Source: Planctomycetota bacterium
GTDB taxonomy: Bacteria > Planctomycetota > UBA8742 > UBA2392
Assembly: GCA_015075515.1 (NCBI GenBank)
Contig: JABTUE010000004.1
Coordinates: 457,119-521,118, forward strand
Length of the DNA stretch: 64,000 bases
Direction: 5' to 3'
Shown here: piece by piece, positions 1,768-33,346 of the stretch
How positions within the stretch are numbered: position 1 is the first letter of the stretch
Layout: every line of letters starts with the position of its first letter
Translations under genes and position numbers: made by a program
The notes under the pieces: model-generated
Seen by the model: only the letters and a program-made list of their open reading frames with translations
Databases searched by the model: none
Told to the model about the DNA's origin: nothing

Positions 1768-2952
1768 GTGGACGTATTTGCCAAGTGCTATGACTTCAAG
1801 CGCGACCTTGAGGTCCAGGCTGTCGGGTTGTACCCGTTCTTCAAGACCATTGAAGGCAACATGGGCTCGCGCGTCGTCATTGACGGCCGCGAAGTCGTCA
1901 TGGCCGGCAGCAACAACTACCTGGGCCTGACGCGCCACCCCAAGGTTGTCGAAGCCGCGCTGGAGGCCACACGCAAGTACGGAACATCATGCAGCGGCAG
2001 CCGTTACGCCAACGGCACCTACGTGATCCACGTGGAACTGGAAGAGCGTCTGGCGGCGTTCATGGGCAAGCCCAAGGCGCTGTGTTTCACCACCGGCTAC
2101 ACCACCAACATGGGCGCGATCAGCGTGCTGGCCGGCCGCCGCGACATCATCTTGAGTGACCGCGAAAACCACAGCTGCATCATGGACGCCACGCAGCTGA
2201 GTTTTGCCGAAACCAAAAAGTACAAGCACGACGACATCGAAGACCTTGAACGCGTGCTGGAAGGTTCGCCCGCCGATGCCGGCAAACTGCTTGTCACTGA
2301 CGGCGTGTTCAGCATGAAGGGCACCCTGGCCCGTCTGCCCGAGATCGTGCGCCTGAAGAAAAAGTACGGCATGCGCATCTTTGTGGATGACGCCCACGGC
2401 GTGGGCGTTGTGGGCAAGCACGGCCGCGGCACCGCCGAGCACTTCGGTCTTGAGGCTGACGTGGACGTGGTGATGGGCACATTCAGCAAGAGTTTTGCCG
2501 GCCTGGGCGGCTTCATCGCCGGCGAAGAGCGCGTGATCAGCTACGTCAAGCACCACGCGCGCCAGTTGATCTTTGCCGCCAGCATGACACCCGCCAGCGT
2601 CGCAGCCGTGACCCAGTCGCTGAAGATGATCCAGTCCGAGCCGGAACACCTGGACAACCTGCGCAAGGTGGTGGCCAAGGTGCGCGCCGAGTTCAAGCGC
2701 ATCGGGTACGCCATCGGCGAAGAAGCCACGCCGATCGTCTACATCAAGGTTGGCGAGGACATCCAGGCCTTCCAGTTCTGGAAGGACCTGCTGGAACTGG
2801 GTGTCTACACCAACCCGGTGATCACGCCCGGCGTTCCCCAGGGCCAAAGCGGCGTGCGTGCCAGTTTCATGGCCATTCACAACGATCGCGACCTTGCCCA
2901 GGTCATCGAGGCGTTCGAGAAACTGGGCAGGAAGTACGGACTGATCAAGTAG
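1768..2952 (+). CDS. PLP-dependent alpha-oxoamine synthase, serine palmitoyltransferase-like
   Basis: GTG start after GAGG; LYPFF..IE, GSNNYLGL, GTSCSGSRYANGT, DDAHG, MGTFSKS (PLP lysine). Confidence 0.8.
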   Translation: MDVFAKCYDFKRDLEVQAVGLYPFFKTIEGNMGSRVVIDGREVVMAGSNNYLGLTRHPKVVEAALEATRKYGTSCSGSRYANGTYVIHVELEERLAAFMGKPKALCFTTGYTTNMGAISVLAGRRDIILSDRENHSCIMDATQLSFAETKKYKHDDIEDLERVLEGSPADAGKLLVTDGVFSMKGTLARLPEIVRLKKKYGMRIFVDDAHGVGVVGKHGRGTAEHFGLEADVDVVMGTFSKSFAGLGGFIAGEERVISYVKHHARQLIFAASMTPASVAAVTQSLKMIQSEPEHLDNLRKVVAKVRAEFKRIGYAIGEEATPIVYIKVGEDIQAFQFWKDLLELGVYTNPVITPGVPQGQSGVRASFMAIHNDRDLAQVIEAFEKLGRKYGLIK

Positions 2953-2966
2953 ACCGCCCGCCAGCA

Positions 2967-2996
2967 AACACGCCCGTCCGCACGGACGGGCGTGTT
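2967..2996. terminator. Hairpin between convergent genes, probable bidirectional terminator
   Basis: AACACGCCCGTCCG-CA-CGGACGGGCGTGTT perfect inverted repeat. Confidence 0.7.
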
Positions 2997-3010
2997 GCGT
3001 TGCGGCGCGG

Positions 3011-3976
3011 TTACTTGTCGTACCAGATCACGTCCGGCACCAGCCAGTCACACTGGGCGTCGGCCCACGACTCGCGCAGGAAGCGGTCGCTGTCGCCCTT
3101 GAGGTAGCGGCCGAAGAAGGCCGTGGCCAAAGCCGCGATGATGCGGTTGGCGCTGGCCTTGCGGGTGTGTTTGGCGTCGCCGGCGTCGGTGAAGTCAAAG
3201 TGATCCACGTTCTGCAGGGCAACATAGAACTGGTCGCCTTTGGGCGCGTTGTTGTAGCTGCCCTTGCGGCCCAGCCAGTCGTCGTCGGTGCCCACAATGT
3301 GCATGCACGGGATCTTGAGGTCTTCGAAACTGTCGTTGCCGAACCAGGGGCTCCAGCCCTGGGTGTCGGGCGTGCCGCCGCCGGCCAGGGGCAAAATCGC
3401 CTTGACGCGGCTGTCGCGCACGCTGTCGTAGTCGCCGTCCATGTACAGTTGCGCGCCGCCGATCCACTGGGCTGTGCCGCCGCCGAACGAGTGGCCGGTA
3501 ACGCCGATCGCGTCAAGATCAATCCGGCCGGCCAGCTTCGGGTGGTGGTCGTTCCACTGCACGGCTTCATCCATCAGAAAGCTCAGGTCGTCGCGGCGGG
3601 CCACGCATTCGTCCATGTCCAGCACCGCCGCCGCAAGCTGGCCGACATTCAGGCGTGAACTGCTGCCCACGTGCTCGGGCACAACCACGATATAGCCGTG
3701 CCGGGCCAGGTGCCGGGCCAGGTACACGTAATGGCGGCGGTCACCACCCAGGCCGTGCGACAACAAAACCAACGGAAACGGCCCCGCGCCCTCGCGCGGC
3801 AGGTACACGCTGGTGGGCAGGTCGCGGCTGCGTAAGCCGTCGCGCAGGCCGTCAAAATCCAGCCGCTCGACCGAATAGCCGCCCCTGGAGGCCGGGCCCG
3901 TCGGCGGCGGGTCGTTGTCACAGGCGGCCAGCAGCAGTGCGCACAAACCAAACGCGAGCAACGGCGACGTTTTCAT
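3011..3976 (-). CDS. Alpha/beta-hydrolase lipoprotein (dienelactone hydrolase/PAF-AH-like)
   Basis: Lipobox LLAAC; SHGLGG; nucleophile elbow GHSFGG; late His in HFDFTD. Confidence 0.85.
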   Translation of the reverse strand: MKTSPLLAFGLCALLLAACDNDPPPTGPASRGGYSVERLDFDGLRDGLRSRDLPTSVYLPREGAGPFPLVLLSHGLGGDRRHYVYLARHLARHGYIVVVPEHVGSSSRLNVGQLAAAVLDMDECVARRDDLSFLMDEAVQWNDHHPKLAGRIDLDAIGVTGHSFGGGTAQWIGGAQLYMDGDYDSVRDSRVKAILPLAGGGTPDTQGWSPWFGNDSFEDLKIPCMHIVGTDDDWLGRKGSYNNAPKGDQFYVALQNVDHFDFTDAGDAKHTRKASANRIIAALATAFFGRYLKGDSDRFLRESWADAQCDWLVPDVIWYDK

Positions 3977-13651: not shown

Positions 13652-16600
13652 ATGCGGAGCCTCTCCGCGTGCGCGGTACTGTCACTTGGCCTGCTGTGCG
13701 CCGCGCTGAACCACGGCGTTGCGGGCGGCCAGGACAGCCCCGACGCGCCCTTGTCCGCCCTTTCGACGCTCGAGTTGGCCCCGGCCTTTGACGGCCACGC
13801 CCAGGCGCGCTTTGAGGAACTTTGGGGCGACCACGACGCGCTGGTGCGGCTCAAGTCGCGCTACGCCCTGGCCGACGCTTCCTGTCCGCTGCCGGATTCG
13901 CCGCGACAGGTGTTCTACCTGCGGCTGCGCGCCGCCCCGGGGCCTGAACTGCTGCGCGCGCTGGACGATTGCGGGGCGCGGCTGCTGGCCTATTACAACG
14001 AAAACACCTGGGCGGTGCGGGCGCGCGACCACGCGGCGCTGGCGGAATGGCTGGCGGGCCGGCCCGAAGTGGCGGGCACGCTGCTGCGGCTGCCGGTGGA
14101 CGCCTGCGACAGCGCGCTGTGGCACGAAATCGCCAACACCGGCGCGGGCGTGTACCGCGTCGGATTCTGGCTGGATGTTTCCTCAACGGCTGTGCGGAAC
14201 ACCATCGGCCAGGCCGGCGGCGTTCTGACCTGGGCGACACTGGAAGAATTCGACCAGCCTGAACTGGCGTCTCGGTTTGTCGAGGCCTGGCTGCCCGCGG
14301 GCGCGGCGGGGCAACTGGCCGCGCACCCGGACGTGGAGTTCATCTGCCGCGCGCCCGAAGTGGCGCTGCATAACCAGAACTCGGTGACGCTGTCCCAGGC
14401 CAACGCCTCGCTGGTGGGGCCGGGCACGGCTTACGGTCTGGACGGCAGCGGTCTGGTGGTGGGGGTGTGGGATGCCGGCGACGCGCTGGAAACCCATGCG
14501 GATTTCCAGGGCGCGCCAAGCCCCAGCCCGATCGGCAACGGGGCGCGGCGCGTGCGTGACATGGCGGGCATGAGCACGCACTATCACGCCACGCACGTCA
14601 CCGGCACGATCATCGGCGACGGCACCGGCGCCGCTGCGGCCCGCGGTTTCGCGCCCAAGGCCTGTGTCGTGAACTATTACTACGGCACGGCCACCACCGG
14701 CGCCCAGCGCGCGGCGCGCTATCAGTTCCGCACGGTGGCGGAAAACCACAGCTACGGCGCCACCTATGGCAGCAGCAACATGGGCGGCTATGACTCGATC
14801 TCGCAGAGCCAGGACATTCTGGCGCGCGACCTGCTGCACCTGATCTGCCGTTCGGCGGGCAACTCGGGCTCGGGCAGCCAGACCGTGGGCGACGACAAGC
14901 ACGCCAAGTGCGCGTTTCAGGTCGGCGCCACCGACGACGCCGGCAACGTGATTGGCATGTCCAGCCGCGGCCCCAGCGACGACGGGCGGTTGCAGCCAAC
15001 AGTTGCCGCCAACGGCAACGCCGTCTATTCCACCTACAGCAACGGCGGCTATGCCCAGTTGTCGGGAAGTTCCATGGCCAGCCCCGGCGCCTGCGGCGCG
15101 CTGACACTGATCACCCAGCACTGGCGGGCCAAATACGCGCGCAAGGCCTTTCCGGCCGACGCCGCGCTGGCACTGGTGGCCGTTACGGCGCTGGACAAGG
15201 GCAACCCCGGCCCGGATTACGTGTATGGGCTTGGTATTCCGCGCGTGAAGGACGCCTGCGACCTGATCAACAGCGACCTTGCCGCCGGCGGCAAGCAGAT
15301 TGTGCGGGGCCAGGCCCGGCACAACGCCACGGTCGAGTACGACCTGGTTGTTTCCTCGTCGGCCACGCCCTTGCGTGTGGCGCTGGCGTGGCTGGACCTT
15401 GACGCCGCCGCCGGGGCGGCGGTGACGCTGGTGAATGACCTGGACCTGACGCTGGTTTCGCCCACGGGCACGACGCACCACCCCTACAGCGGCCTGACCA
15501 ACGGCGTGGGGCAAAGCCAGAACCACGTGTGGACGACAAGCGGCCCCAACCGGCGCGACAACGTGGAACTGGCGGTGATCACCAGCCCTGAAACCGGCAC
15601 CTGGAAGGTGCGCGTCAAGGGCCACAACATTCCGGCCAACGCGCGCGGCGTGCCCAACGCCGTGCAGGGCTATGTGTTGTGCAGCAACCGCGCCCTGACC
15701 CACAACTTTGCGTGGGCCGCCGACAGCCTGAACACCGGCACGCCGGTCAGCATCCCCGACAACAACCCCACGGGGCTGGTGCGCACGCTGAACGTGAGCA
15801 ACACCGGCACAATCAAGGGCGTGCGTCTGTACGTGGACATCCGCCACAGTGCGCGCGGAAATCTCGAGATCGTGCTGGAGCACCCGGACACCACCACGGT
15901 GCTGTTGCAAGGCACGACCAGTTCCACCACCGACGACCTGATCGCGATTTTCCCCGACACGCGCCAGCACAACAGCGACGTGACGGCGCTGCTGAACAAG
16001 CCCGCCAACGGCGCCTGGAAGGTTCACGTGCGCGACAAAACCGCAGGCGACACCGGCACGCTGGAGTTTCTGGCCCTGGAACTGGAAACCACGGCCCCGG
16101 CCGCCCCCAACACGCCGCCGGTGGCCAACGCCGGCGCGGATTTCTCGATCACCGAGGGCAACACCGCCCAGCTTAACGGCAGCGGCAGTGACGCCGACGG
16201 CGACACGTTGACTTACGCCTGGACGCAGATTGCCGGGCCGGGCGTCAGCCTGACCAATGCCAGCCAGCCCCAGGCCAGTTTTGTGGCACCCCAGGTCAGC
16301 GCCGCCACGCCGCTGACCTTCCGGCTGACGGTCAACGACGGCCGTGGCGGCAGCCATTCCGACGATGTGGTGGTCACGGTGCTGGATTCCGCCACAAACA
16401 ACCCGCCCAACGCCAACGCCGGGCCTGACCAGGGGGCCGTGTTCGGCGCAACTGTGACACTCAACGGCACGGCCAGCAGCGACCCCGACGGCGACACGTT
16501 GACCTGGGCCTGGGTTCAGACCGGCGGCACCACGGTCACCTTGAACGGGGCCAACACCGCCACGCCGTCGTTCACGGCGCCGTCTGTGGCTGACACGCTG

Positions 16601-16822
16601 ACTTTCCAACTGACTGTCAGTGACGGCCGCGGCGGCACCGCCACGGACACCGTAGTGGTGTCTGTCAACGCCACGGGCACGCCGCCGGCGCCGCCGCCAA
16701 CCGGTGGGGGAGGCGGCAGGGGCGGCGGTGGGGGAGGCGGGGGATGCATGGCCGGCGCGGGCGCAATCTGGCCGCTGCTGCTGGTTTTGCCCCCGGCGCT
16801 GGCCCGCCGCCGGCGCCGTTAG
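13652..16822 (+). CDS. Secreted S8 subtilisin-family protease with P-domain, two PKD-like repeats and a C-terminal sorting tail
   Basis: Triad VGVWDAG / HATHVTGT / SGSSMASP; PPxANAG repeats; Gly-rich-C-TM-RRRRR end. Confidence 0.9.
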   Translation: MRSLSACAVLSLGLLCAALNHGVAGGQDSPDAPLSALSTLELAPAFDGHAQARFEELWGDHDALVRLKSRYALADASCPLPDSPRQVFYLRLRAAPGPELLRALDDCGARLLAYYNENTWAVRARDHAALAEWLAGRPEVAGTLLRLPVDACDSALWHEIANTGAGVYRVGFWLDVSSTAVRNTIGQAGGVLTWATLEEFDQPELASRFVEAWLPAGAAGQLAAHPDVEFICRAPEVALHNQNSVTLSQANASLVGPGTAYGLDGSGLVVGVWDAGDALETHADFQGAPSPSPIGNGARRVRDMAGMSTHYHATHVTGTIIGDGTGAAAARGFAPKACVVNYYYGTATTGAQRAARYQFRTVAENHSYGATYGSSNMGGYDSISQSQDILARDLLHLICRSAGNSGSGSQTVGDDKHAKCAFQVGATDDAGNVIGMSSRGPSDDGRLQPTVAANGNAVYSTYSNGGYAQLSGSSMASPGACGALTLITQHWRAKYARKAFPADAALALVAVTALDKGNPGPDYVYGLGIPRVKDACDLINSDLAAGGKQIVRGQARHNATVEYDLVVSSSATPLRVALAWLDLDAAAGAAVTLVNDLDLTLVSPTGTTHHPYSGLTNGVGQSQNHVWTTSGPNRRDNVELAVITSPETGTWKVRVKGHNIPANARGVPNAVQGYVLCSNRALTHNFAWAADSLNTGTPVSIPDNNPTGLVRTLNVSNTGTIKGVRLYVDIRHSARGNLEIVLEHPDTTTVLLQGTTSSTTDDLIAIFPDTRQHNSDVTALLNKPANGAWKVHVRDKTAGDTGTLEFLALELETTAPAAPNTPPVANAGADFSITEGNTAQLNGSGSDADGDTLTYAWTQIAGPGVSLTNASQPQASFVAPQVSAATPLTFRLTVNDGRGGSHSDDVVVTVLDSATNNPPNANAGPDQGAVFGATVTLNGTASSDPDGDTLTWAWVQTGGTTVTLNGANTATPSFTAPSVADTLTFQLTVSDGRGGTATDTVVVSVNATGTPPAPPPTGGGGGRGGGGGGGGCMAGAGAIWPLLLVLPPALARRRRR

Positions 16823-17088: not shown

Positions 17089-17318
17089 AGTGAATAAGTT
17101 ATTTGTAAGTTCTTGAACCCTGAACAAACTCCTATGGTACGACTGCCGTTTGCAATGCAGTTTCGTGGGGAGTCTGGGTAACTCCGCCTGTGCGATCTTT
17201 GGCATCTCGGACTTGGTGTGTCGCCGACCGGTGTGGATGTCGGCCCTGACTGCGTTTGGGAGAGCGCAGCCATCGGCCCCAGCCTGTCCCGCCGGCGCCA
17301 TGCCGAAGGGAGGCATCC

Positions 17319-20300
17319 ATGCGGCCCAAACCCGCATTGTATGGCCTGGCTTTGTTGTTGATTGCCGGTGGTTTCGCCTTCGTGGGGCAGGACCACCCAA
17401 GCGGCCAGGAAACGCCGGCGCAAGCGCCGGCAGGCCTGCGCCAGTCCAGGGCACACGACGCCCTTGACCGGCAGGTCATGGAAGCAGCGCTATCCCTTGA
17501 AGAGCGGGCGGCTCTAGTGACGCTTGTGTCCCGATCCGTGCTGGTTGACCCTGATTGCCCGCTGCCGACGTCCGAACCGACAGCCCCGTTTTACCTGAAG
17601 CTCCGTGGTCCGATGACCGCGGAGTTCGCGGCCGAATTGCAGGCCGCCGGCGCCTCGTTTGTGGGCTACGCGGCCGAACACACCCATTTTGTGCGCGCCG
17701 TGGCGGCACAGGCCCGGCCGGGCATTCGCGCGTTGATTGCATCCCACGGCGGCGTGGTCGGCACGGCCTTGCAGCAACCCGAAGACGTGTGCGACGCCCG
17801 CGCCTGGGTCATGCACCAGAACCCTGCCTTTGAGGGCGCCGAATTCCGCGTGCTGTTCTGGCGCGACGTGACGGCGCCGCAGGCGGCGGCGCTGCTGGCG
17901 CGTTACCGGGCGCCGGTGCTGGAGGCATCCACCGACGCCGAAGGCCGGCTGGACCTTGAAACCCCGTTCGTTGACACCTGGCTGGACCGCGCGGCGCTGC
18001 TGGCCTTTGCCGCCAGCCCGCTGGTGGAATGGATCGAGCCGCGTCCGGTGTGGCAGGTGGGCAACGTGGCCAGTTGCGCGCTGTCGCACGCCACGGCCGC
18101 CGAAGTCGGCCCCGGCACCAGCTACAACCTGGACGGCACCGGTCTGGTCGTGGGCGTGTGGGACGGCGGCACCTGCCGCGACAGCCACGTGGGCGTGCAG
18201 GGCGCGCCCAGCCCCAGCCCGATCAACAACGGCACCAAGCGCGTGGCCAAGGGCACGGCGCTTGGTCTTGACGGCGGCAGCACGGCCTCGCACCCCACGC
18301 ACGTGACGGGCACGATCATCAGCGACGGCACCAGCAGCAGCGGCGGCAACGGCCGCGGCTACGCGCCCAAGGCCTGCGCCCTGAGCTATGACTGGAACAG
18401 CATGAGCAGCGAACGCCGCATGGCCCGCCACACCTGGCGCCACGTGGCCGACAACCACAGTTACGGCAATGCCGGCGGCGGCACCGGCGGCTATGACAGC
18501 TCGGCCCAGTCCAGTGACCAGGACATCCGCGACATCCTGCTGCTGATGTGCAAGGCCGCGGGCAACGACGGCAGCGCCGACAACACCGTCACCGACGACG
18601 GCTGCATGAAAAACAGCTTCACGATCGCTTCCACCAGCGACAGCGGCACGGTTTCCGGCTTCAGTTCGCGCGGGCCGACCGATGACGGGCGGCTGATTCC
18701 GCACTTTTCGGCCAACGGCGAAAACCTGCTGAGCCTGGGCAGCGGCAGCGACACCAGCTATGTGCAGAACGGCTGGTCCGGCACCAGCATGGCCAGCCCC
18801 AGCGCCTGCGGCTCGCTGGTGCTGCTGGCCCAGTTGTGGCGGCGCGAGTTCAGCAACCGTAACTTTTCGCCCGACGTGGCGCGCGCGGTGCTGGCGCTTA
18901 CGGCCGAAGACCGCGGCAACACCGGCCCGGATTACCGCTACGGCTTTGGCATCGTGGACTGCAAACGCGCGGCCGACCTGATTCTGGCCCACAAGAGCAG
19001 CGGCGGCCGCCACATCGTCAACGGCACCATCCGCCAGGGCGCCACGGTGGACATCCCGGTGGCGGTCACGGGCACGGCGCCGCTGCGCGTGACCCTTTCG
19101 TGGCTGGACATTTACGCCAGCACCGGCGCGGGTACCAAGCTGATCAACGACCTTGACCTGGAACTGATCGCGCCCAACGGCACCACGGTGCATTATCCCT
19201 GGAGCGGCCTGACGACCTCGGGCGTGCAGACGCACCAGTGGACGCGCACCGGCCCCAACCGGCGCGATAACATTGAACTGGCCACGGTGGATTCGCCGGC
19301 CACCGGCACATGGACGATCCGCGTCAAGGGCTTCAACATCCCTTCCACGCCGCAAACAGGCATTCCCAACGCGGCCACGGGGTTTGTGGTGGCCTGCGAA
19401 CGCCCGATGAACATCAACAAGGTAATCCGTGAAGACGCCGTGAACACCGGCAGTCCGGTCAGCATCCCCGACAACAGCGCCGCCGGCATCAGCCGCACCT
19501 TCAGCGTCAGCGGCGTGACCGGCACCGTGGCCGCCGTGCGCGTGCACGTGGACATCAAGCACACCAACCGCTCGCACCTGGTGATTCACCTGCGCCACCC
19601 CGACAACACCCAGGTGACAATCGAAACCAACAGCAGCACACGCCGCGACCTGATCGCCACCATCCCGGACACGCGCCAGAACATGAACGATCTGTCAGGC
19701 ATGACCGGCAAGGGCGTCAACGGCACCTGGACAATCATTGTCGCCGACACCGTAAGCGGCAACACGGGCACGCTTCAGTACCTGACGCTGGAAATTGACG
19801 TCAACGCCGCGGGCTCGGCCAACAATCCGCCCAACGCCAACGCCGGCAACGACCAGACCGTCAATGAGGGCACGCTGGTGACTTTGAACGGCACCGGCAG
19901 CAGCGATCCCGACGGCGACGTGCTGGCCTTCAGTTGGCAGCAGCTTTCCGGCCCGGCGGTCACGCTGAACAACCCGACCACAGCCACGCCGACATTTACG
20001 GCGCCGCTGGTTTCGGCCACCACAAACCTGAGCTTTCGCCTGACGGTCAACGACGGACGCGGCGGCACCGACACCGACGACGTGGTGATCACCGTGCAGG
20101 ACGTAACGGCACCCAACAACCCGCCCAATGCCAACGCCGGGCTTGATTTCAGCGTGGTAGAAGGCAACCCGACCGGGCTTGACGCAACCGGCAGCAGCGA
20201 CCCCGACGGCGACGCGCTGACCTTCAGTTGGGCCCAGATCGGCGGCCCGGCGGTCACGCTGGCCGGTGCCAACACGGCCACACCGACGTTCACGGCACCG

Positions 20301-20840
20301 ATGGTCACCGTCAGCACGCCGCTTACATTCCGTGTTACGGCCAATGACGGGCGCGGCGGCACCGACACCGACGACGTGGTGGTGACGGTTCTGGACTCCA
20401 TGGCCAACCAGCCGCCGGTGGCCAACGCTGGCGCCGACAAAAACGCGCCGGTCAACTCGGTGGTGAACTTGGACGGTTCGGCCAGCAGCGATCCAGACGG
20501 CGACCCGCTGACCTACAGTTGGGTTCAGGTGGGGGGCACCAACGCCGTTGCGTTGTCCAACCCCACGGGCGCAGCCACGGCGTTTACCGCGCCTTCGGTG
20601 GCTGACACGCTGGTGTTCCAGCTTGAGGTCAGCGACGGCCAGGGCCACTTCTCGCTGGACACGGTCACGGTGTTTGTCGGCTCGGGCGCCGGCGGTTCCG
20701 GCGGCAGTGGGGGAGGCGGCAAGGGCGGCGGCGGGGGCTGCGCCCAGAACGCGCGGGACACGGGCGTTCCGGTGCTGCTGGTGATGCTTGCCGCGGGTCT
20801 GCTGGTTTCGATCCGGGCGGCCCGGCGCCGGGCTACTTGA
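17319..20840 (+). CDS. Secreted S8 protease paralog with P-domain, three PKD-like repeats and a C-terminal sorting tail
   Basis: GGAGG RBS; triad VGVWDGG / HPTHVTGT / SGTSMASP; collinear with 13652-16822. Confidence 0.9.
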   Translation: MRPKPALYGLALLLIAGGFAFVGQDHPSGQETPAQAPAGLRQSRAHDALDRQVMEAALSLEERAALVTLVSRSVLVDPDCPLPTSEPTAPFYLKLRGPMTAEFAAELQAAGASFVGYAAEHTHFVRAVAAQARPGIRALIASHGGVVGTALQQPEDVCDARAWVMHQNPAFEGAEFRVLFWRDVTAPQAAALLARYRAPVLEASTDAEGRLDLETPFVDTWLDRAALLAFAASPLVEWIEPRPVWQVGNVASCALSHATAAEVGPGTSYNLDGTGLVVGVWDGGTCRDSHVGVQGAPSPSPINNGTKRVAKGTALGLDGGSTASHPTHVTGTIISDGTSSSGGNGRGYAPKACALSYDWNSMSSERRMARHTWRHVADNHSYGNAGGGTGGYDSSAQSSDQDIRDILLLMCKAAGNDGSADNTVTDDGCMKNSFTIASTSDSGTVSGFSSRGPTDDGRLIPHFSANGENLLSLGSGSDTSYVQNGWSGTSMASPSACGSLVLLAQLWRREFSNRNFSPDVARAVLALTAEDRGNTGPDYRYGFGIVDCKRAADLILAHKSSGGRHIVNGTIRQGATVDIPVAVTGTAPLRVTLSWLDIYASTGAGTKLINDLDLELIAPNGTTVHYPWSGLTTSGVQTHQWTRTGPNRRDNIELATVDSPATGTWTIRVKGFNIPSTPQTGIPNAATGFVVACERPMNINKVIREDAVNTGSPVSIPDNSAAGISRTFSVSGVTGTVAAVRVHVDIKHTNRSHLVIHLRHPDNTQVTIETNSSTRRDLIATIPDTRQNMNDLSGMTGKGVNGTWTIIVADTVSGNTGTLQYLTLEIDVNAAGSANNPPNANAGNDQTVNEGTLVTLNGTGSSDPDGDVLAFSWQQLSGPAVTLNNPTTATPTFTAPLVSATTNLSFRLTVNDGRGGTDTDDVVITVQDVTAPNNPPNANAGLDFSVVEGNPTGLDATGSSDPDGDALTFSWAQIGGPAVTLAGANTATPTFTAPMVTVSTPLTFRVTANDGRGGTDTDDVVVTVLDSMANQPPVANAGADKNAPVNSVVNLDGSASSDPDGDPLTYSWVQVGGTNAVALSNPTGAATAFTAPSVADTLVFQLEVSDGQGHFSLDTVTVFVGSGAGGSGGSGGGGKGGGGGCAQNARDTGVPVLLVMLAAGLLVSIRAARRRAT

Positions 20841-21714: not shown

Positions 21715-22055
21715 GGCGGCCTCGCGTCCGGGCGTGACCGTAGCCACCGGCAGAGGTGATGTCAACGCGGGCCGGGGGTTTCAGGGCAGCGAACCGAACG
21801 TGGCGGCCGCCTGACCGGACAGCGTCAGACTGCCTGGCCCGCGGATTGGCTGTAAATCCCCTACGTCCGATAATCGCTCTTATGTTCGGTTAAGGGTCGG
21901 GGGAGGTTTTGGCTTCAAACAGGCTCTGCTGGCGGCTCTGTGGCGCCTTGGCCGTCCAGGCGCGAACCTTGCCGCCCAGTTTGGCCCGGCGTTATCCGTC
22001 CCGGCGCGTTATCATGGCCCGGCCCCATGTTGACCCCGTCCGGAGTCTGCCCGTA

Positions 22056-23264
22056 ATGATTGTGCGCCTGTGTCTGGCCCTGGCTGCCCTCGCCGGCGGC
22101 CTTTCCGCCGCCAACGTGGCGGTCAACCTGTCCGGCACCACCAACCCGGCCTTTGCCAACAAACTGAGCGACAGCGACGTTCAGGTCGTGCGCTTTGTGA
22201 TGCAGGCCTCCGGCGGCGACGTCAACGTCAGCAGCGTCACCCTGACAGTCAGCAACGCGACCCAGGCCGCCGTGGCGTTCACCGGCATCAAGCTGTTCTT
22301 TGATTCCGAACCCAACGGCACGTTTGATCCCGGCGAACAGGTCGGCACCACCCAGACGATTGCCGGCGCTACCGTGACCTTCAACGGCACGTTCACGGTC
22401 AAAAACGGCCTGATTCACGAGTTGCAGGTGCGCGTGGATATCGGGGCGAGCACGGCCGTTTATGGCGAAGCCTTTCAGTTCAGCATTGCCGCCGGCACCG
22501 ACATCGGGTTGCCGGGGGCGCCGACGGACACCGTCAGCGGGGCCTTTCCGTTTACGGGCAACGCCCTGACCATCCGCAACAGCGTCAACCAGCTTGTGCC
22601 CGGCACGGGCAACCCGGCATCGCCGCGCAGCGTCCAGCACGGCAGCCAGAACGTGGCGGCTTTGCAGTTTGCCCTGGACAGCCTTGTGCCGGTGGCGCCG
22701 GGCGAACTGGTGGGTCTTGACCTTCAGTCGCTGGCCATCAGCATTACCACCCAGACCGCCTCGCAGACGGCAGCCGTCAGCGCCCTGGCACTGTGGCAGG
22801 ACGACGGCGACGCGCTGTTTGAACCCGGCAGCGGCGAGGCGCTGATTCTGGCGCGGACTCCGGCCGATCTGGGCAAGTGGACAGCCGCCGGCAACGTGAT
22901 CACCGTGACGTTTGACGGCGCGGCAATCAACGTGCTGCCGACGATTCTGACCGGCCAGGCGCGCACCTTCTGGGTCGGCATCAGTTTTGCCGGCGGGGCC
23001 GATTGCGTGTGCGAGGTCAGTGTCAACCGCAGCAACGTTCAGGGTTCACTGGGCACGGCGGCGGATTTTTTTGTCACCAGCCCGACGGCCATCACCGGCA
23101 ACGTCATTACCGTGGCCAACCTGCCCAAACCGCCCGCCGCCCCCGAGGCCGAAGGCGAGGGCGGCTGCAGCACGGATACCCGTCAGGTGCCGGTATTTGC
23201 GCTGTTAATTGCGGCCGTGGCAGGATTTGCTTCGTTGCGCCGGGCCTTGAAACGTAAGCTTTAA
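22056..23264 (+). CDS. Secreted beta-rich surface protein with a C-terminal sorting tail
   Basis: Signal peptide; two related beta domains (LFFDSEPNGTFDPGE / LWQDDGDALFEPGSGE); ends EGEGGC-TM-RRALKRKL. Confidence 0.75.
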   Translation: MIVRLCLALAALAGGLSAANVAVNLSGTTNPAFANKLSDSDVQVVRFVMQASGGDVNVSSVTLTVSNATQAAVAFTGIKLFFDSEPNGTFDPGEQVGTTQTIAGATVTFNGTFTVKNGLIHELQVRVDIGASTAVYGEAFQFSIAAGTDIGLPGAPTDTVSGAFPFTGNALTIRNSVNQLVPGTGNPASPRSVQHGSQNVAALQFALDSLVPVAPGELVGLDLQSLAISITTQTASQTAAVSALALWQDDGDALFEPGSGEALILARTPADLGKWTAAGNVITVTFDGAAINVLPTILTGQARTFWVGISFAGGADCVCEVSVNRSNVQGSLGTAADFFVTSPTAITGNVITVANLPKPPAAPEAEGEGGCSTDTRQVPVFALLIAAVAGFASLRRALKRKL

Positions 23265-23337
23265 GGCTACAGTGCCACTCATTTGTGTGCCTCTGATACC
23301 TGGTGCGAGCAGGTATGGACACTCTGGAGATGTCCCC

Positions 23338-24309
23338 ATGAAAGCTGTTCTGGCATGGACGGTCCTGGCGGCCGTTCTGGGTGTTTCGTCGGCCCACGCG
23401 CTGGGCGTCGGCGAACAGGCACCCAACTTCAAGTTCGAAAAGGTCTGGAATGCCACCGACAACCAGACCCAGCTTGACGACTACCGCGGCAAACTTGTGC
23501 TCGTGGAGGCCTGGGCTACGTGGTGAGGGCCCTGCATGAGGGGGGTCCCCCATCTCAAGGAACTTTTCACCAAGTACAACGCCCGCGGCTTTGAACTGGT
23601 GGCCGTCAGCAACGAAACCGAAGACAAGATTGCCGGTTTCGTCAACGGCGACAAAAAGCCCAACTACACCGTCGTCCGCTATTCCAAGATTGCCGAGCAA
23701 TACGGCGTCAAGGGCTGGCCCTCCGCCTGGGTGCTGGATGCCAACGGCAAGGTGCTGTGGGCGGATCACTTCATTGACAAGGTCAGCGACGAACAGTGGG
23801 AGAAGTGGCTGGAAAATCTGGCCCCCACCAGGGTGGACAAGACGCTGGCCAAGGAGCTCGGCGGGGCCGTCAAGGCCTTTGACAAGGGCGAAGTCGGCAA
23901 GGCACTGGAAGAATCCCGCAAGGTGGCCGAAACCGCCACGGACGGTGCCGTCAAGGCCGACTGTGAGTACCTGCAGGGTCTTTGCGACAAGCACGTGAAA
24001 CTGCACACGCGCAAGATCGAATCGGCCGGCAGCGACACCGTGGCCAGGGTCAAGGCACTGGAGGACGGCGCGGCCAAACTCAAGGGCAGTGAAATCGGCA
24101 ACAAATGGGACACCGAGGCCAAGGAACTGAAGAAGAGCAAGGAATACAAGGATTGCTCGGCCGCGGCCGAAGAACTGGCCAAACTCAAGCCGCAACTCAA
24201 GGACATGAAGGAATCCAACGCCAAAAAGAAACTGGAAGCCATCGCCAAAAAGTACCCGGACACGCCGGCGGGCAAGGAAGCCGCCGAGCTTGCCAAGGGC
24301 TACAACTAG
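23338..24309 (+). CDS. Exported TlpA/redoxin-family protein, probable selenoprotein (UxxC; in-frame TGA at 23524-23526, codon 63)
   Basis: GGAG RBS; signal peptide; APNF..LDDYRGKLVLVEAWATW-TGA-GPCMRGVPHL continues in the same frame; cis-Pro motif GVKGWPS. Confidence 0.85.
23537..23557 (+). promoter_or_regulatory. Candidate bacterial SECIS hairpin of redoxin 1
   Basis: TGAG-GGG[GGTCC]CCC-AT-CTCA stem-loop starting +11 from the TGA, GT in the apical loop. Confidence 0.5.
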
Positions 24310-24330
24310 CCCGGCACCAGGTGACGTTTC

Positions 24331-24360
24331 ACCGGCCCGGGGTGCGGACCCCGGGCCGGT
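24331..24360 (+). terminator. Hairpin/terminator between the two redoxin genes
   Basis: ACCGGCCCGGGGT-GCGG-ACCCCGGGCCGGT perfect 13-bp stem followed by TCATTTC. Confidence 0.6.
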
Positions 24361-24403
24361 TCATTTCAGGTTTCAACGATCGGTGCGGATCGAAAGGGCA
24401 ACG

Positions 24404-25387
24404 ATGAAAACGCTGGGCATGCTGGTGTTGCTGGCGCTGGCGGCTGTGCCGCTGGCGGCCATGGAAAAGGGCGACGAGGCGCCGAACTTCAGGTTTGAGG
24501 CGCAATGGAACACACTGCCGGGGGCAAAACAGCTTACCGATTACCGCGGCAAAATCGTGTTTCTGGAGATCTGGAAGATCCACTGAGAGCCCTGCATGCG
24601 GTTTCTCCCGCACCTGGTTCAGGTAAACGAGAAATATCGCGACAAGGGTGTTGAAATCATCATGGCCACCGACGTGGACAAGGCCGACGCCCTGGCCAAG
24701 TTCGTGGCCGAAAAGGGCCTGAAGCTTGGCGTGGCGCGCGTGCCTGATGTGTACAAGCTGGTCAAGGCCAGCGGCTACCCCACTTCCTACGGCATTGATG
24801 TGGACGGCCGGTGCATCTGGCGCGGCCACCCGCAGGGCCTGAACGACACGCTGGTGGACGGCTGGCTGAAGGACATGCGCGCGCCGAAACTGCCGCGCGA
24901 GCTGGCGGCACAACTGGCCGGCGCGGCCCAGCACTACAACGCCGGCAAGTATGGCTCGGCGCTGGAGGCCGCAGGCAAGCTGCTCAAGCACAAGGACGAA
25001 AAGGTCAAGGCCGACGCGCAGTATCTGGCCGACATCCTGCAGGGCCGCGCCGACATGTACAAAGCCGCCGCGGAGCAGTTCAAAAAAGACGGCTACCACG
25101 ACAAGCTGGCCGATGTGCTGGAACTGGCCGCGTCGGAGTTTGACGACGACTTCGGCAAGGACAGCGGCAAGGAAGCCAAAAAGGTCAAGGGCACCAAGGC
25201 CTACAAGGCCTGCGTGGAAGCCCGCGAGGAACTGGCAACGTTGAAGGAAACGCTCAAGGGCAAGAAGGGCGACGACCGCGCCAAGGCCGTGGACAAGTTC
25301 AAAAAGGACCACGGCGAAACGCCCTACGGCAAGGAGGCCGAGGAACTTCGCGCCGAGCCCAAGGAACCGGGCAAAGACGGCCATTGA
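24404..25387 (+). CDS. Second exported TlpA/redoxin paralog, probable selenoprotein (UxxC; in-frame TGA at 24584-24586, codon 61)
   Basis: Signal peptide; APNF..LTDYRGKIVFLEIWKIH-TGA-EPCMRFLPHL in frame; GYPTSY cis-Pro motif; collinear with redoxin 1. Confidence 0.83.
24597..24624 (+). promoter_or_regulatory. Candidate SECIS region of redoxin 2
   Basis: TGCGG-TTTCTC-CCGCA stem starting +11 from the TGA, then ACCTG-GTT-CAGGT. Confidence 0.4.
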
Positions 25388-25400
25388 AGCGGCCGGCAGT

Positions 25401-25436
25401 CAAAGGGCACGGCCGGCGCCGTGCCCTTTGTGTTTT
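25401..25436 (+). terminator. Rho-independent terminator after redoxin 2
   Basis: CAAAGGGCACGGC-CGGC-GCCGTGCCCTTTG followed by TGTTTT. Confidence 0.8.
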
Positions 25437-25467
25437 CGCGCATCCCCCACTGTGGTAAGTTCGGGCC

Positions 25468-26109
25468 ATGCTGAAATTGAACGCGATTGAGCGCCGCGTG
25501 CTGGGCACGCTGCTGGAAAAGTGGCTGACCACGCCGCAGAACTACCCGCTTTCACTGAACGCCCTGACCAACGGCTGCAACCAGAAATCCGCCCGCGACC
25601 CGGAAACCAGCTACACCGAGCAGCAAGTGCTGGAGACCTGCCAGGCGCTGAAGCGCCGCAGCCTGGTCACCGAGTTTTTCGGTTCCTCGGCCCGCGTCAG
25701 CAAGTTCGAGGAAGCCCTGAGCGTGCACCTGGAACTGGGCAAGGAACAGGCCGCCGTGATCGCTGAACTTCTGCTGCGCGGCCCGCAAAGCGAGGGTGAA
25801 CTGCGCCAGCGCGCCGGACGCATGGCGCCGATTGCCGATCTGGCAACCCTGCACAGCCTGCTGGAACAACTGGGCACGCGCCCCGAACCGCTGGTACGGC
25901 GGCTGTCTGACCCCACGCGCTCGCGCGGCGTGCGCTGGAGCCACACCCTGTACGCCGACGGCGAAGAACCGGCTGACCTGCCTGAGTCCCCCGCCGCGTC
26001 CCAGGGCTACTCCCCCACCACCCCGGCGCTGGAAGAGCGCCTGGCGCAACTGGAGGCCCGCGTGGCCGAACTGGAACGCCAGCTCGGCGTGCGGCCCCCA
26101 GCCCACTGA
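25468..26109 (+). CDS. DUF480/YceH family protein
   Basis: RVLGTLLEK..TTP..YPLSLNALTNGCNQKSARDP; LLLRGPQSEGELR. Confidence 0.9.
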   Translation: MLKLNAIERRVLGTLLEKWLTTPQNYPLSLNALTNGCNQKSARDPETSYTEQQVLETCQALKRRSLVTEFFGSSARVSKFEEALSVHLELGKEQAAVIAELLLRGPQSEGELRQRAGRMAPIADLATLHSLLEQLGTRPEPLVRRLSDPTRSRGVRWSHTLYADGEEPADLPESPAASQGYSPTTPALEERLAQLEARVAELERQLGVRPPAH

Positions 26110-31939: not shown

Positions 31940-32500
31940 ACTGTATGGTTGGGCATTTTCGTTGCGCCAGTCCATCCACGCAAGCCGCTTTTCCTGCCAG
32001 TCCGGGATACTCTCGAAGTTCCCGCGCCGGATCACGTTGCGGCTGATCTCGGCAAAGAACAACTCCACTATATTCAGCCAACTCGCGTGTGTCGGCGTGG
32101 GATACACCTGCACACGGCCCCGGTACCGGGCAATCTCCTGCTTCACGGCATCCGTGTTATGCGCGCTGAGGTTGGCCCTGGCGCATGGGTTGGTCGGGGC
32201 GCTTGCACTGAAGCGCTTGGATGCAGGTCTTCTCGTCGAAGCACAGCACCACGGAGTGCTTTGGCGGATGCAGGTACAGGTTCACGACGTCCTGCATCTT
32301 TGTGTCAAAGTCCGGGTCCTGGCTGTGCAGCCAGTAGCGCGAACGATGGGGCTTGATCTCGGCCGCGTTGAGCCAGACGCGCACTGTTTCGTGGCCGCCA
32401 TCGGGCAGCGGCGCCAGTGAGAACGCCATGCATGCCAGCAGGCGCAGCGTCCAGTGGGTGTGCAACAGGCCGTGGTGAGACGACGGCTTGCAGGCGAGCG
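31940..32500 (-). mobile_element. IS630-family transposase remnant (fragmented, internally deleted); boundaries approximate
   Basis: HWTLRLLA..IKPHR..DPDF..VLCFDEKTCIQAL and TPTHASWLNIVELFF..IRRGNF in separate ORF fragments. Confidence 0.85.
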
Positions 32501-32512
32501 CGTTCAGCCGAT

Positions 32513-33346
32513 GTTTGTGCAATTGAAGCGCTGCAACCGGGCATGCTGGTGCTGTCGCGGTCAGAGGATGGCTTCGATCACCCGCTTGTCTTGCGTGCCG
32601 TCACATTCACCACCTCGCGCCTGGTGGATGAACTGGTCGAGGTCACGGTCGTAGATGACCGCACATCGAGCGTCAGCAAGATCACGACCACCGCCGGGCA
32701 CCCGATCTGGACCTGGGCGCGCGAAGGCGAGCTTGTGGACGTGGCCTGCACCATCGCCGACGAAGAAGTCGGCCTGAAGTACGTCACCGGCACAGACGGA
32801 GGCCGCAAACAGGCCGACCAGGGCTGGACGTTTGCCACGGACATTAAGCCCAGGCAGTGGGTCGCCGGCCCCACGCGGCCGCTGGGGACCGTGGCCGGCG
32901 TCAGGCACATTGAAGCCCCCGGCACCCGCGTCTACAATTTCGGCGTTGACGGCACCCGGACGTACTTCGTAAGCGGTACAACGGTCTGCGGCCAGCCGAT
33001 GCCTGTGTGGGTGCACAACACCCACCGCAGGACGAGCAAGGCACCGGAGGGCACCTCTGTTCGGGTTGGAAAGAACGGCGGAGAAATGCCCGCCGAGCAC
33101 GCGAAGATAGTCGCTGAGCGTGAAAAGCGCCGTGCTGAGCAACGAAACAAGAAAGCACGAGAATGTAATGGACAAAATGCCCAAGGTTCCAAGAAGGAAA
33201 AGGGGCAAAAAGGGCCCAGCGGAGTAATGCCTGAAGAAGCGCGAAAGAAAAAACAAGAGGCGCAACAGCGCGAGCGAAACGTAGGCATAGATGAGGAGCA
33301 TAGCCGACGCACGAAGAACAACCCGGGAGCGGGGGCTAAACGATGA
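32513..33346 (+). pseudogene. N-terminally truncated polymorphic toxin: pretoxin Hint domain plus unknown C-terminal toxin domain
   Basis: IEALQPGMLVLS, TTAGHPIW, W..A..IKP, VYNFGVDGTRTYFV, VWVHN; lower-GC tail; 5' end abuts the IS630 remnant. Confidence 0.8.

What the first reader, a model, noticed from the sequence alone, without database searches (positions are those of the whole stretch)
23338..25387. Tandem pair of exported UxxC redoxins hidden by in-frame TGA codons (probable selenoproteins)
Seen: two adjacent paralogous genes, each split by the ORF caller at a TGA (23524 and 24584). Read through, they give WATW-*-GPCMRGVPHL and WKIH-*-EPCMRFLPHL. The stop sits exactly on the attacking Cys of the TlpA/thioredoxin WCxxC motif, and the frames continue intact to 323 and 327 aa. 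Both have signal peptides and an added Lys/Glu-rich helical domain ending in a similar motif (KKYPDTPAGKEA / KDHGETPYGKEA). Established: UGA at a catalytic Cys position is the hallmark of selenocysteine. Inference: two independent nonsense mutations at the same codon of diverged, otherwise intact paralogs are unlikely, so this looks like a duplicated extracytoplasmic selenoprotein redox module that standard annotation would miss or call pseudogenes.
Basis: partly seen in the sequence, partly recalled or inferred. Interest (0 to 1): 0.88.

Follow-up and report, generated by a model that had tools for sequence, protein, structure and literature searches.

The report
Two exported selenocysteine TlpA-like redoxins
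Two neighbouring genes of an uncultured planctomycete encode exported thiol-disulfide oxidoreductases that use selenocysteine (read from UGA) in place of the attacking cysteine; this is a real but already familiar kind of selenoprotein that gene callers routinely cut short.

Summary
In-frame TGA sits at 23524-23526 and 24584-24586. Read through, the genes give 323 and 327 aa proteins with WATW-U-GPC and WKIH-U-EPC.

The genome (Planctomycetota MAG, 3.87 Mb) has tRNA-Sec, selA, selB and selD; selD itself carries TGA. Of 28 homologs from 20 genomes, 25 have TGA and 3 have TGT/TGC at that exact column. dN/dS is about 0.11-0.17 on both sides of the codon in the closest orthologs. TGA is the commonest ordinary stop, so it is not reassigned.

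A G+C-rich hairpin with GU at the loop lies 11-14 nt after the TGA in 24 of 32 Sec forms and 0 of 9 Cys forms. This criterion was set post hoc.

The N-domain has the ResA/DsbE/TlpA fold. The C-domain is an eight-helix, weakly TPR-like module, homologous to the C-terminus of NCBIfam's VPGUxxT (seleno)protein family.

In public protein sets, 48 of the 54 best clusters are truncated at the N-terminus.

UxxC TlpA-like selenoproteins are already listed as predicted families, so this is a new, uncurated member of a known kind. No selenium incorporation was measured. Interest is moderate.

The parts
23338..24309 (+). Gene 1: exported UGPC redoxin, 323 aa, stop TAG
   Evidence: Read-through translation. 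Orthologs with TGA at the same column in 18 of 21 gene-1-like homologs. dN/dS 0.17 upstream and 0.17 downstream against the closest ortholog.
23338..23400 (+). Gene 1 probable signal peptide (residues 1-21, ...SSAHA|LG)
   Evidence: Read from the sequence. Low-confidence N-terminal helix in the AF2 model. No predictor was run, so this is inference.
23407..23760 (+). Gene 1 thioredoxin-fold (TlpA/ResA/DsbE-like) domain
   Evidence: Pfam AhpC-TSA 2.6e-19, Redoxin and Thioredoxin_8 over residues 24-141. Foldseek best hits are ResA and DsbE, TM(target) 0.76-0.83.
23524..23526 (+). Gene 1 Sec codon (TGA, residue 63), first position of U-G-P-C
23531..23560 (+). Gene 1 candidate bacterial SECIS hairpin (GGGG / GUC loop / CCCC core at 23541-23551)
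   Evidence: The hand-set structure is paired in 80.6% of cells against 42-53% when slid. Pair 16-30 is AU:6, GC:6. The hairpin is present in Sec forms and absent in Cys forms.
23851..24297 (+). Gene 1 C-terminal eight-helix, weakly TPR-like domain
   Evidence: AF2 helices 172-320. Domain alone: pLDDT 94. NF041382 C-terminal part, 49.5 bits. Weak TPR_6 hit in 16 of 26 members.
24331..24360 (+). Intergenic 13-bp G+C-rich hairpin followed by TTCATTTC; possible terminator or attenuator between the two genes
   Evidence: RNAfold of 24310-24403. The terminator scan did not call it.
24404..25387 (+). Gene 2: exported UEPC redoxin, 327 aa, stop TGA at 25385-25387
   Evidence: Read-through translation. 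All 7 of 7 orthologs carry TGA at the column. dN/dS 0.145 upstream and 0.114 downstream against the closest ortholog.
24404..24460 (+). Gene 2 probable signal peptide (residues 1-19, ...PLAA|ME)
   Evidence: Read from the sequence; inference.
24458..24817 (+). Gene 2 thioredoxin-fold domain
   Evidence: NCBIfam ResA subfamily over residues 19-138, 71 bits, below the cut-off. Pfam AhpC-TSA 6.5e-11. phmmer to solved ResA 4nmu, 7.7e-17, with U aligned to the first Cys of its CKPC.
24584..24586 (+). Gene 2 Sec codon (TGA, residue 61), first position of U-E-P-C
24597..24624 (+). Gene 2 candidate SECIS region: hairpin UGCGG/UUUCUC/CCGCA (24597-24612) and hairpin ACCUG/GUU/CAGGU (24612-24624)
   Evidence: The second hairpin is paired in 7 of 7 orthologs, with one compensatory CG<->GC pair. 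The first hairpin is kept in 4 of 7 by the criterion.
24869..25345 (+). Gene 2 C-terminal helical domain
   Evidence: NF041382 C-terminal part over residues 156-314, 37 bits. Aligned with gene 1.
25401..25440 (+). Intrinsic-terminator-like site after gene 2 (13-bp stem, then a T run)

Best explanation
Both genes are intact selenoprotein genes.

Architecture. Each encodes a protein of about 320 aa with three parts: a signal peptide; a TlpA/ResA/DsbE-type thioredoxin-fold domain whose active site is U-x-P-C, with selenocysteine in the place of the N-terminal, attacking Cys of CxxC; and a C-terminal eight-helix, weakly TPR-like domain.

Decoding. The UGA is read as Sec by SelB and Sec-tRNA(Sec), probably directed by a short G+C-rich hairpin. 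The hairpin starts 11-14 nt after the UGA and has GU at its apical loop.

Likely chemistry (inferred). After export, the selenolate attacks a disulfide, or another oxidised sulfur, in a periplasmic client. The resolving Cys then forms a selenenylsulfide. The enzyme is re-reduced through a CcdA/DsbD-type membrane electron conduit, one of which the genome encodes elsewhere. The helical domain most likely binds the client or a partner. The two paralogs (UGPC and UEPC) would then serve different clients.

Shown here: the UGA/Cys column, the Sec machinery, conservation of the frame on both sides, the fold, and the homology of the C-domain.

Inferred: export, direction of electron flow, clients, and that the hairpin is the SECIS.
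For: Sec machinery in the same genome:
- tRNA-Sec at 73 bits, called SeC (tca) by ARAGORN.
- selA 545 bits, about 0.8 kb from the tRNA-Sec gene; selB 316 bits.
- selD 392 bits, with its own TGA in SHGAGUGCK.

Sec/Cys column:
- 25 TGA and 3 TGT/TGC among 28 homologs from 20 genomes.
- 32 TGA and 9 Cys among 41 distinct family members found in all loci plus the genome.
- 32 of the 35 best rows of the relatives search carry exactly one TGA (my count of the listed rows).
- A solved ResA aligns its first active-site Cys to the U.

Selection and strain variation:
- Against the same-genus ortholog, dN/dS is 0.173 upstream and 0.168 downstream for gene 1, and 0.145 and 0.114 for gene 2.
- A strain in an independent DNA run differs at 6 of 2151 bases. 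None is in a TGA, and 5 of the 6 are synonymous.

TGA is not reassigned: it ends 1243 of 2389 long open frames, and it ends gene 2 itself.

Hairpin:
- Present in 24 of 32 Sec forms, 0 of 9 Cys forms, and 8.8% of shuffles.
- Mean MFE is -14.8 for Sec forms against -11.3 kcal/mol for Cys forms.

Fold: full model pLDDT 89; Foldseek finds ResA/DsbE/CcmG/TlpA-like chains.

Other support:
- The tandem pair is kept in 6 genomes: G000, G001, G004, G008, G011, G014.
- DsbD_TM at 116 bits elsewhere in the genome.
- Contigs from two RNA libraries of one study bridge both TGAs with 0 differences.
Against: No measurement of selenium incorporation or of the protein products exists.

The SECIS evidence is only moderate:
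- No curated RNA model matched; the Rfam scan gave no SECIS family at E <= 10.
- Single-sequence fold z-scores are unremarkable, -0.64 to +0.92.
- RNAalifold found almost nothing for gene 1 (-0.74 kcal/mol).
- The hairpin criterion was set after I had seen the sequences.
- The sequences are related, so they are not independent samples.
- 8 of 32 Sec forms fail that criterion, among them 3 of 7 gene-2 orthologs.

The RNA-library contigs are at depth 2-6 and may derive from DNA; the tool itself says transcription is not shown.

No CcdA/DsbD, cytochrome-maturation or Sco gene lies next to the pair. The Pfam-scanned neighbours are subtilases, DapA, DUF480 and IspF, and the 605-aa ORF opposite reads as cysteinyl-tRNA synthetase by eye, unscanned. 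The client is therefore unknown.

The C-domain has no confident structural relative.
Confidence: 0.88

Rival explanations
1. Functional rival, with the same genes still selenoproteins: they act as periplasmic selenol peroxidases (Prx/GPx-like), removing peroxides, rather than as protein disulfide reductases.
For: The best Pfam family is AhpC-TSA (2.6e-19 and 6.5e-11), with a weak GSHPx hit. Sec is typically used where peroxide or sulfenic chemistry matters; this is general knowledge, and the review PMC13188914 makes the point in passages I saw.
Against: The active site is W-x-x-x-U-x-P-C at the start of helix 1, as in thioredoxin, ResA and TlpA. The peroxiredoxin motif PxxxTxxC is not present (sequence). 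The closest solved folds and sequences are ResA, DsbE, CcmG and TlpA; peroxiredoxins score lower and with poor rmsd.
Confidence: 0.15
2. The TGAs are true stops. Each locus gives a ~60-aa exported peptide and/or a separate 257/263-aa protein started at the Met after the motif, as gene callers annotate it.
For: An ATG follows each UxxC (23536 and 24596), and gene callers take it: 38 of 48 truncated public clusters start there.
Against: The cut would fall inside a single thioredoxin-fold domain, between strand 1 and the active-site helix. Six full-length Cys homologs exist. The upstream part is under purifying selection as strong as the downstream part. No ribosome-binding motif was looked for before the internal ATG. 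That Met is simply the conserved residue after CxxC: C-M/V/I in Cys forms too.
Confidence: 0.03
3. The genes are pseudogenes, or the TGAs are assembly or sequencing errors.
For: None beyond the in-frame stop itself.
Against: TGA sits at the same column in 25 of 28 homologs from 20 independently assembled genomes. It is also kept in an independent DNA contig. No other internal stops or frameshifts occur, and dN/dS is well below 1.
Confidence: 0.01
4. UGA is read through by some route other than Sec: a suppressor tRNA, or a Trp or Gly reassignment.
For: Read-through of UGA exists in some uncultured lineages (general knowledge).
Against: TGA is the commonest stop of long frames in this genome, 1243 of 2389. 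The aligned residue in homologs is always Cys. A complete Sec system is present, and SelD uses it.
Confidence: 0.02

Closest known systems
ResA / TlpA / DsbE(CcmG) extracytoplasmic thiol-disulfide oxidoreductases (Cys enzymes)
   Same: Same fold and the same active-site position (Foldseek TM(target) 0.76-0.83; phmmer to ResA 4nmu 7.7e-17). The active-site motif has a W four residues before the first redox residue (W-x-x-x-C/U-x-x-C), as in the solved ResA WGTWCKPC. A Pro is invariant in the family at P128, the place where thioredoxin folds have the cis-Pro (recalled). Exported.
   Different: Sec replaces the attacking Cys. An extra ~165-aa helical C-domain is present. Scores fall below NCBIfam's cut-offs for ResA (90 and 71 bits against 170), TlpA and DsbE. 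No cytochrome-c-maturation or Sco context.
[quoted passage not shown]
   Same: TlpA-like / AhpC-TSA-type thioredoxin fold with a UxxC active site. This is the same kind of selenoprotein.
   Different: I could not fetch the example accessions, so it is untested whether those families include the helical C-domain or planctomycete members. 'Planctomycet' occurs 0 times in the main text of that review.
NCBIfam NF041382, VPGUxxT family thioredoxin-like (seleno)protein, type 1
   Same: The C-terminal helical domain is homologous. Model positions 171-348 of 349 match residues 149-320 of gene 1 (49.5 bits) and 156-314 of gene 2 (37 bits). A paralog on contig 3 reaches 79.8 bits. The architecture is the same: a Trx-like Sec domain followed by this helical domain.
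   Different: The whole-protein score is far below the 350-bit cut-off. The N-domain and motif differ: WxxxUxPC here, not VPGUxxT.
[quoted passage not shown]
   Same: A ResA-like domain with Sec after a WAxx lead-in; gene 1 reads WATWUG.
   Different: 42 bits against a cut-off of 300. The motif here is U-G-P-C (UxxC), not U-G-C.

Membership tests
Bacterial selenoprotein gene (SelB/SECIS-dependent UGA decoding) | In-frame UGA aligned with Cys in homologs | tested here: met
   25 TGA and 3 Cys of 28; 32 TGA and 9 Cys of 41.
Bacterial selenoprotein gene (SelB/SECIS-dependent UGA decoding) | tRNA-Sec, SelA, SelB and SelD in the genome | tested here: met
   All four exceed the family cut-offs. SelD reads GAGUGCK.
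Bacterial selenoprotein gene (SelB/SECIS-dependent UGA decoding) | SECIS stem-loop just downstream of the UGA | tested here: inconclusive
   Candidate hairpins are present in both genes. They occur in 24 of 32 Sec forms, 0 of 9 Cys forms and 8.8% of shuffles, by a post-hoc criterion. Pair counts are moderate. No curated model matched.
Bacterial selenoprotein gene (SelB/SECIS-dependent UGA decoding) | Selenium in the protein | not testable with these tools
   Needs 75Se labelling or mass spectrometry.
TlpA/ResA/DsbE-like thioredoxin-fold oxidoreductase (Pfam AhpC-TSA / Redoxin / Thioredoxin_8) | Pfam domain above the gathering score | tested here: met
   AhpC-TSA 69.8 and 42.7 bits (cut-off 26); Redoxin 57.5 and 36.3; Thioredoxin_8 55.9 and 28.4.
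TlpA/ResA/DsbE-like thioredoxin-fold oxidoreductase (Pfam AhpC-TSA / Redoxin / Thioredoxin_8) | Thioredoxin fold with the C/UxxC at the start of helix 1, and a conserved Pro at the cis-Pro position | tested here: met
   AF2 model and Foldseek. C63, P65, C66 and P128 are invariant in 33 sequences. The cis conformation itself was not tested.
NCBIfam ResA subfamily NF002854 | Score at or above 170 bits | tested here: not met
   90.3 and 71.3 bits.
NCBIfam NF041382 VPGUxxT (seleno)protein type 1 | Score at or above 350 bits and a VPGUxxT motif | tested here: not met
   49.5 and 37 bits, C-terminal part only. The motif is absent.
NCBIfam NF041054 WAxxUGC_long | Score at or above 300 bits and a WAxxUGC motif | tested here: not met
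   42.3 bits for gene 1 and no hit for gene 2. The motif is UGPC / UEPC.
Peroxiredoxin | PxxxTxxC/U peroxidatic motif | tested here: not met
   The sequence before U is LVLVEAWATW / IVFLEIWKIH, with no P...T.
TPR / YbgF-BamD-like helical repeat (C-domain) | Significant sequence or fold match | tested here: inconclusive
   TPR_6 in 16 of 26 members at E <= 1, best 0.014. Foldseek best E 0.21, to BamD and YbgF. VIA Z <= 6.7.

The most novel reading that the evidence does not exclude
This planctomycete family runs a multi-member periplasmic selenoprotein redox network. It is built from one lineage-specific, uncurated family: a Sec-TlpA-like domain plus a TPR-like adaptor domain. The family has duplicated repeatedly (six full-length members in this genome, four with Sec). 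It has switched between Sec and Cys at least twice. It is fixed as a tandem UGPC/UEPC pair whose members serve different clients. The Sec forms far outnumber the Cys forms in nature.
Probability: 0.4. Interest if true: 0.55.

Novelty: new member of a known kind. Interest (0 to 1): 0.42.

Why it matters
The case shows how standard gene calling loses the active site of a whole family. In the public protein collection searched, 48 of the 54 closest clusters are fragments truncated at the N-terminus and named 'hypothetical protein' or 'TlpA family protein', against 6 full-length Cys forms.

It also adds an exported, duplicated Sec-redoxin family in Planctomycetota. The selenoproteome papers I could search do not mention that phylum in their main text: 0 occurrences in PMC13188914, PMC12013277, PMC5029168 and PMC13326102.

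A curated model for this family would repair many annotations. The natural Sec/Cys paralog pairs, some adjacent in one genome, offer a ready comparison of what Sec buys an extracytoplasmic reductase.

Tried and rejected
Rfam scan of 23000-25800 at E <= 10. It gave only five chance-level matches and no SECIS family. This is not informative about a bacterial SECIS.

Single-sequence folding of the 60 nt at or after each TGA. The z-scores were -0.64 to +0.92, no better than shuffles.

RNAalifold on 18 gene-1 orthologs. It gave a near-zero consensus of -0.74 kcal/mol, so I set a structure by hand.

An extended outer stem for the gene-2 element. It was paired in only 67.3% of cells and was no better than the version slid by -1 (68.4%). 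I dropped it and kept only the inner hairpin.

Fold searches of the C-domain alone. Foldseek found no match at E <= 0.001. VIA-align's best was Z 6.7, which its own note places within noise for helical repeats. I call the domain 'weakly TPR-like' and nothing more.

Promoter scan. No sigma-70-like site in 23100-25600.

Neighbourhood. No redox partner was found among the Pfam-scanned neighbours.

Sequencing runs. The stretch is held by wastewater, sludge and bioreactor runs of 12 studies. The RNA-library contigs do not prove transcription.

Complex prediction, the search of protein representatives and the protein-atlas search were not used. No claim of binding is made.

Literature. Searches found no paper on planctomycete selenoproteins in the held library. 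Supplementary tables that could list them were closed, and I did not see them (for example Table S2 of PMC5029168 and the BSepDB tables).
Full report
**What is in the sequence.** The window is contig 4, bases 457119-521118, of a 3.87-Mb, five-contig genome (91.7% complete, 65% G+C). Under table 11, each of two adjacent + strand genes is cut by a TGA. The cuts are at 23524-23526 and 24584-24586. Read through, 23338-24309 gives 323 aa and 24404-25387 gives 327 aa. The motifs are WATW-U-GPCMRGVPHL and WKIH-U-EPCMRFLPHL. The two proteins are 34% identical over 299 aa (E 1e-45). Both start with what reads as a Sec-type signal peptide; no predictor was available, so this is inference. Gene 1 is followed by a 13-bp G+C-rich hairpin (24331-24360). 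Gene 2 is followed by a terminator-like site (25401-25430).

**Is the UGA selenocysteine?** The genome has the whole decoding system.
- tRNA-Sec scores 73 bits and ARAGORN calls it SeC with anticodon tca.
- selA, about 0.8 kb from the tRNA-Sec gene on the same strand, scores 545 bits.
- selB scores 316 bits.
- selD scores 392 bits and is itself interrupted by one TGA in the motif SHGAGUGCK.

TGA is not reassigned. It ends 1243 of 2389 long open frames, it ends gene 2, and it ends two of the seven Pfam-identified neighbours checked.

A search of 41 related genomes found matches in 40. Of the 35 best rows, 32 carry exactly one in-frame TGA and 3 carry none (my count of the listed rows). I cut out 28 homologs from 20 genomes. 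At the exact column of the U, 25 have TGA and 3 have TGT or TGC, and no frame has another internal stop. Over all loci plus the genome, 41 distinct members give 32 TGA and 9 Cys. A solved ResA (4nmu) aligns the first Cys of its CKPC to the U.

**Selection and independent DNA.** Against the same-genus ortholog, dN/dS is 0.173 upstream and 0.168 downstream of the TGA for gene 1. For gene 2 the values are 0.145 and 0.114. More distant pairs stay below 1 wherever dS could be estimated.

A DNA contig from a microbial-mat run of another study covers the whole stretch with 6 substitutions in 2151 bases. None is in a TGA. Five of the six are synonymous and one is Ala to Val.

Short contigs from two RNA libraries of one study bridge both TGAs without a difference. 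Their depth is 2-6, and the tool warns that this does not show transcription.

**SECIS.** The evidence here is moderate.

In gene-1-type Sec genes, the codons after the motif (M-x-G-V-P-H) spell a GGGG / GUY / CCCC hairpin that starts 11-14 nt after the UGA. The Cys paralogs read M-A-Q/N-I-P-H there and have no such hairpin.

A hand-set structure is paired in 80.6% of cells, against 42-53% when slid. One pair splits AU:6 and GC:6, linking a synonymous His position to the first base of another codon.

For gene 2, an ACCUS / GUW / SAGGU hairpin is paired in 7 of 7 orthologs, with one compensatory CG<->GC change. A UGCGG / UUUCUC / CCGCA hairpin sits at the same spacing as in gene 1.

By a criterion I fixed after seeing the data, a hairpin is found in 24 of 32 Sec forms, 0 of 9 Cys forms and 8.8% of shuffles. 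The criterion was a contiguous stem of at least 4 bp with at least 3 G-C pairs, a loop of 3-7 nt with GU at the loop, and a loop start 17-30 nt after the U. Mean MFE is -14.8 for Sec forms against -11.3 kcal/mol for Cys forms (Mann-Whitney p 0.05 on MFE and 0.03 on z).

Several caveats apply. The sequences are related. The criterion is post hoc. Eight Sec forms fail it. Rfam, single-sequence folding and RNAalifold gave nothing.

**What the proteins are.** The N-domain matches Pfam AhpC-TSA, Redoxin and Thioredoxin_8 above their cut-offs. In an AF2 model of pLDDT 89 it superposes on ResA, DsbE, CcmG, Etrx and the DipZ C-domain.

NCBIfam's ResA, TlpA and DsbE models all score below their cut-offs. 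So this is a TlpA-like oxidoreductase, but not an equivalog of any of them. It lacks the peroxiredoxin PxxxTxxC motif.

The C-domain (residues ~172-320) folds as eight helices (pLDDT 94 alone). It gives only weak TPR-like signals. It is homologous to the C-terminal half of NCBIfam NF041382, the 'VPGUxxT family thioredoxin-like (seleno)protein, type 1'. A Trx-like Sec domain fused to this helical module is therefore an architecture already seen in another selenoprotein family.

**The family around it.** The relatives are Planctomycetota MAGs. The genome holds six full-length members:
- genes 1 and 2, both with Sec;
- a run of three on contig 3, one each with Sec, Cys and a lost motif;
- one more Sec member on contig 4.

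There is also a shorter USIC redoxin. The gene-1/gene-2 tandem is kept in six genomes of three genera. In the other same-genus genome, G002, a Cys paralog of gene 1 sits downstream instead.

On a tree of 33 members the Sec/Cys label needs three changes, and well-supported branches force at least two. Gene 2 forms a long-branched, Sec-only clade with 100/100 support.

In the public protein collection, 48 of the 54 closest clusters are 214-267-aa fragments. Of these, 38 start at the Met right after UxxC. The named ones are called 'hypothetical protein', or in one case 'TlpA family protein disulfide reductase'. Six clusters are full-length WATWCGPC forms.

**Mechanism proposed.** This paragraph is inference. 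The exported enzyme uses the selenolate of U-x-P-C to attack a client disulfide or another oxidised sulfur. The resolving Cys forms a selenenylsulfide. Electrons come from a CcdA/DsbD-type membrane protein; the genome has one DsbD_TM match at 116 bits elsewhere on contig 4. The helical domain selects the client. No partner gene lies beside the pair, so the client is open. A peroxidase role is the main functional rival.

**Known or new.** The 2026 review PMC13188914, Table 1 (passages seen), lists these as predicted selenoprotein families:
- 'Prx-like thiol:disulfide oxidoreductase (PF00578, UxxC)';
[quoted passage not shown] - 'VPGUxxT family thioredoxin-like protein'.

The kind is therefore known. 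What I did not find described is this subfamily, its planctomycete expansion and its tandem pair. No NCBIfam model reaches its cut-off. The word 'Planctomycet' is absent from the main text of the four selenoproteome papers searched. Searches found no paper on the subject. Supplements and the BSepDB content could not be seen and may already hold these genes.

**Verdict.** The genes are real selenoproteins with high probability. They are a new, uncurated member of a known kind, of moderate interest.

Noticed in passing
G000 contig 1, 1077128-1078054 (-), outside the window (locus L016): selD is itself a selenoprotein gene: one in-frame TGA in SHGAGUGCKL, at the position where Cys forms of SelD have their catalytic Cys (recalled).
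   Followed up: partly
G000 contig 3, 277516-280689 (-), outside the window (loci L083, L084, L088): Three tandem full-length paralogs of the same family sit in a row. One has Sec (YWGTR-U-GPC), one has Cys (LWGVK-C-GPC), and one has lost the redox motif altogether (WNLGDLD).
   Followed up: partly
G000 contig 4, 13276-14262 (-), and contig 3, 6385-6888 (-), outside the window: Two further Sec redoxins: SWGIN-U-GPC (full length) and LWAPG-U-SIC (N-domain type). Each has a hairpin with GU at the loop at the same spacing after the TGA.
   Followed up: partly
L020 (G002, same genus), 2645-3610 (+): In the other same-genus genome, G002, the gene after the gene-1 ortholog is not a gene-2 ortholog. 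It is a Cys paralog of gene 1 (RWATW-C-GPCMAQIPH, 60% identical to gene 1). This gives a natural adjacent Sec/Cys pair.
   Followed up: partly
window 21909-23264 (+): A 451-aa ORF just upstream has no Pfam match. It has an N-terminal hydrophobic segment and a C-terminal hydrophobic stretch followed by a basic tail (...VFALLIAAVAGFASLRRALKRKL). That resembles a C-terminal sorting or anchor signal, by recollection only.
   Followed up: no
window 13652-16822 (+) and 17256-20840 (+): Two large paralogous secreted subtilases: Peptidase_S8, a P-domain, and several K319L-like PKD domains.
   Followed up: no
window 23300-25450: Near-identical DNA is held by wastewater, sludge and bioreactor metagenome runs from 12 studies, and by one microbial-mat run. 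The organism is therefore widespread in engineered water systems.
   Followed up: partly
window 32417-33346 (+): An ORF with a sub-threshold Pretoxin HINT (PT-HINT) match: 26.7 bits against a cut-off of 27.7.
   Followed up: no
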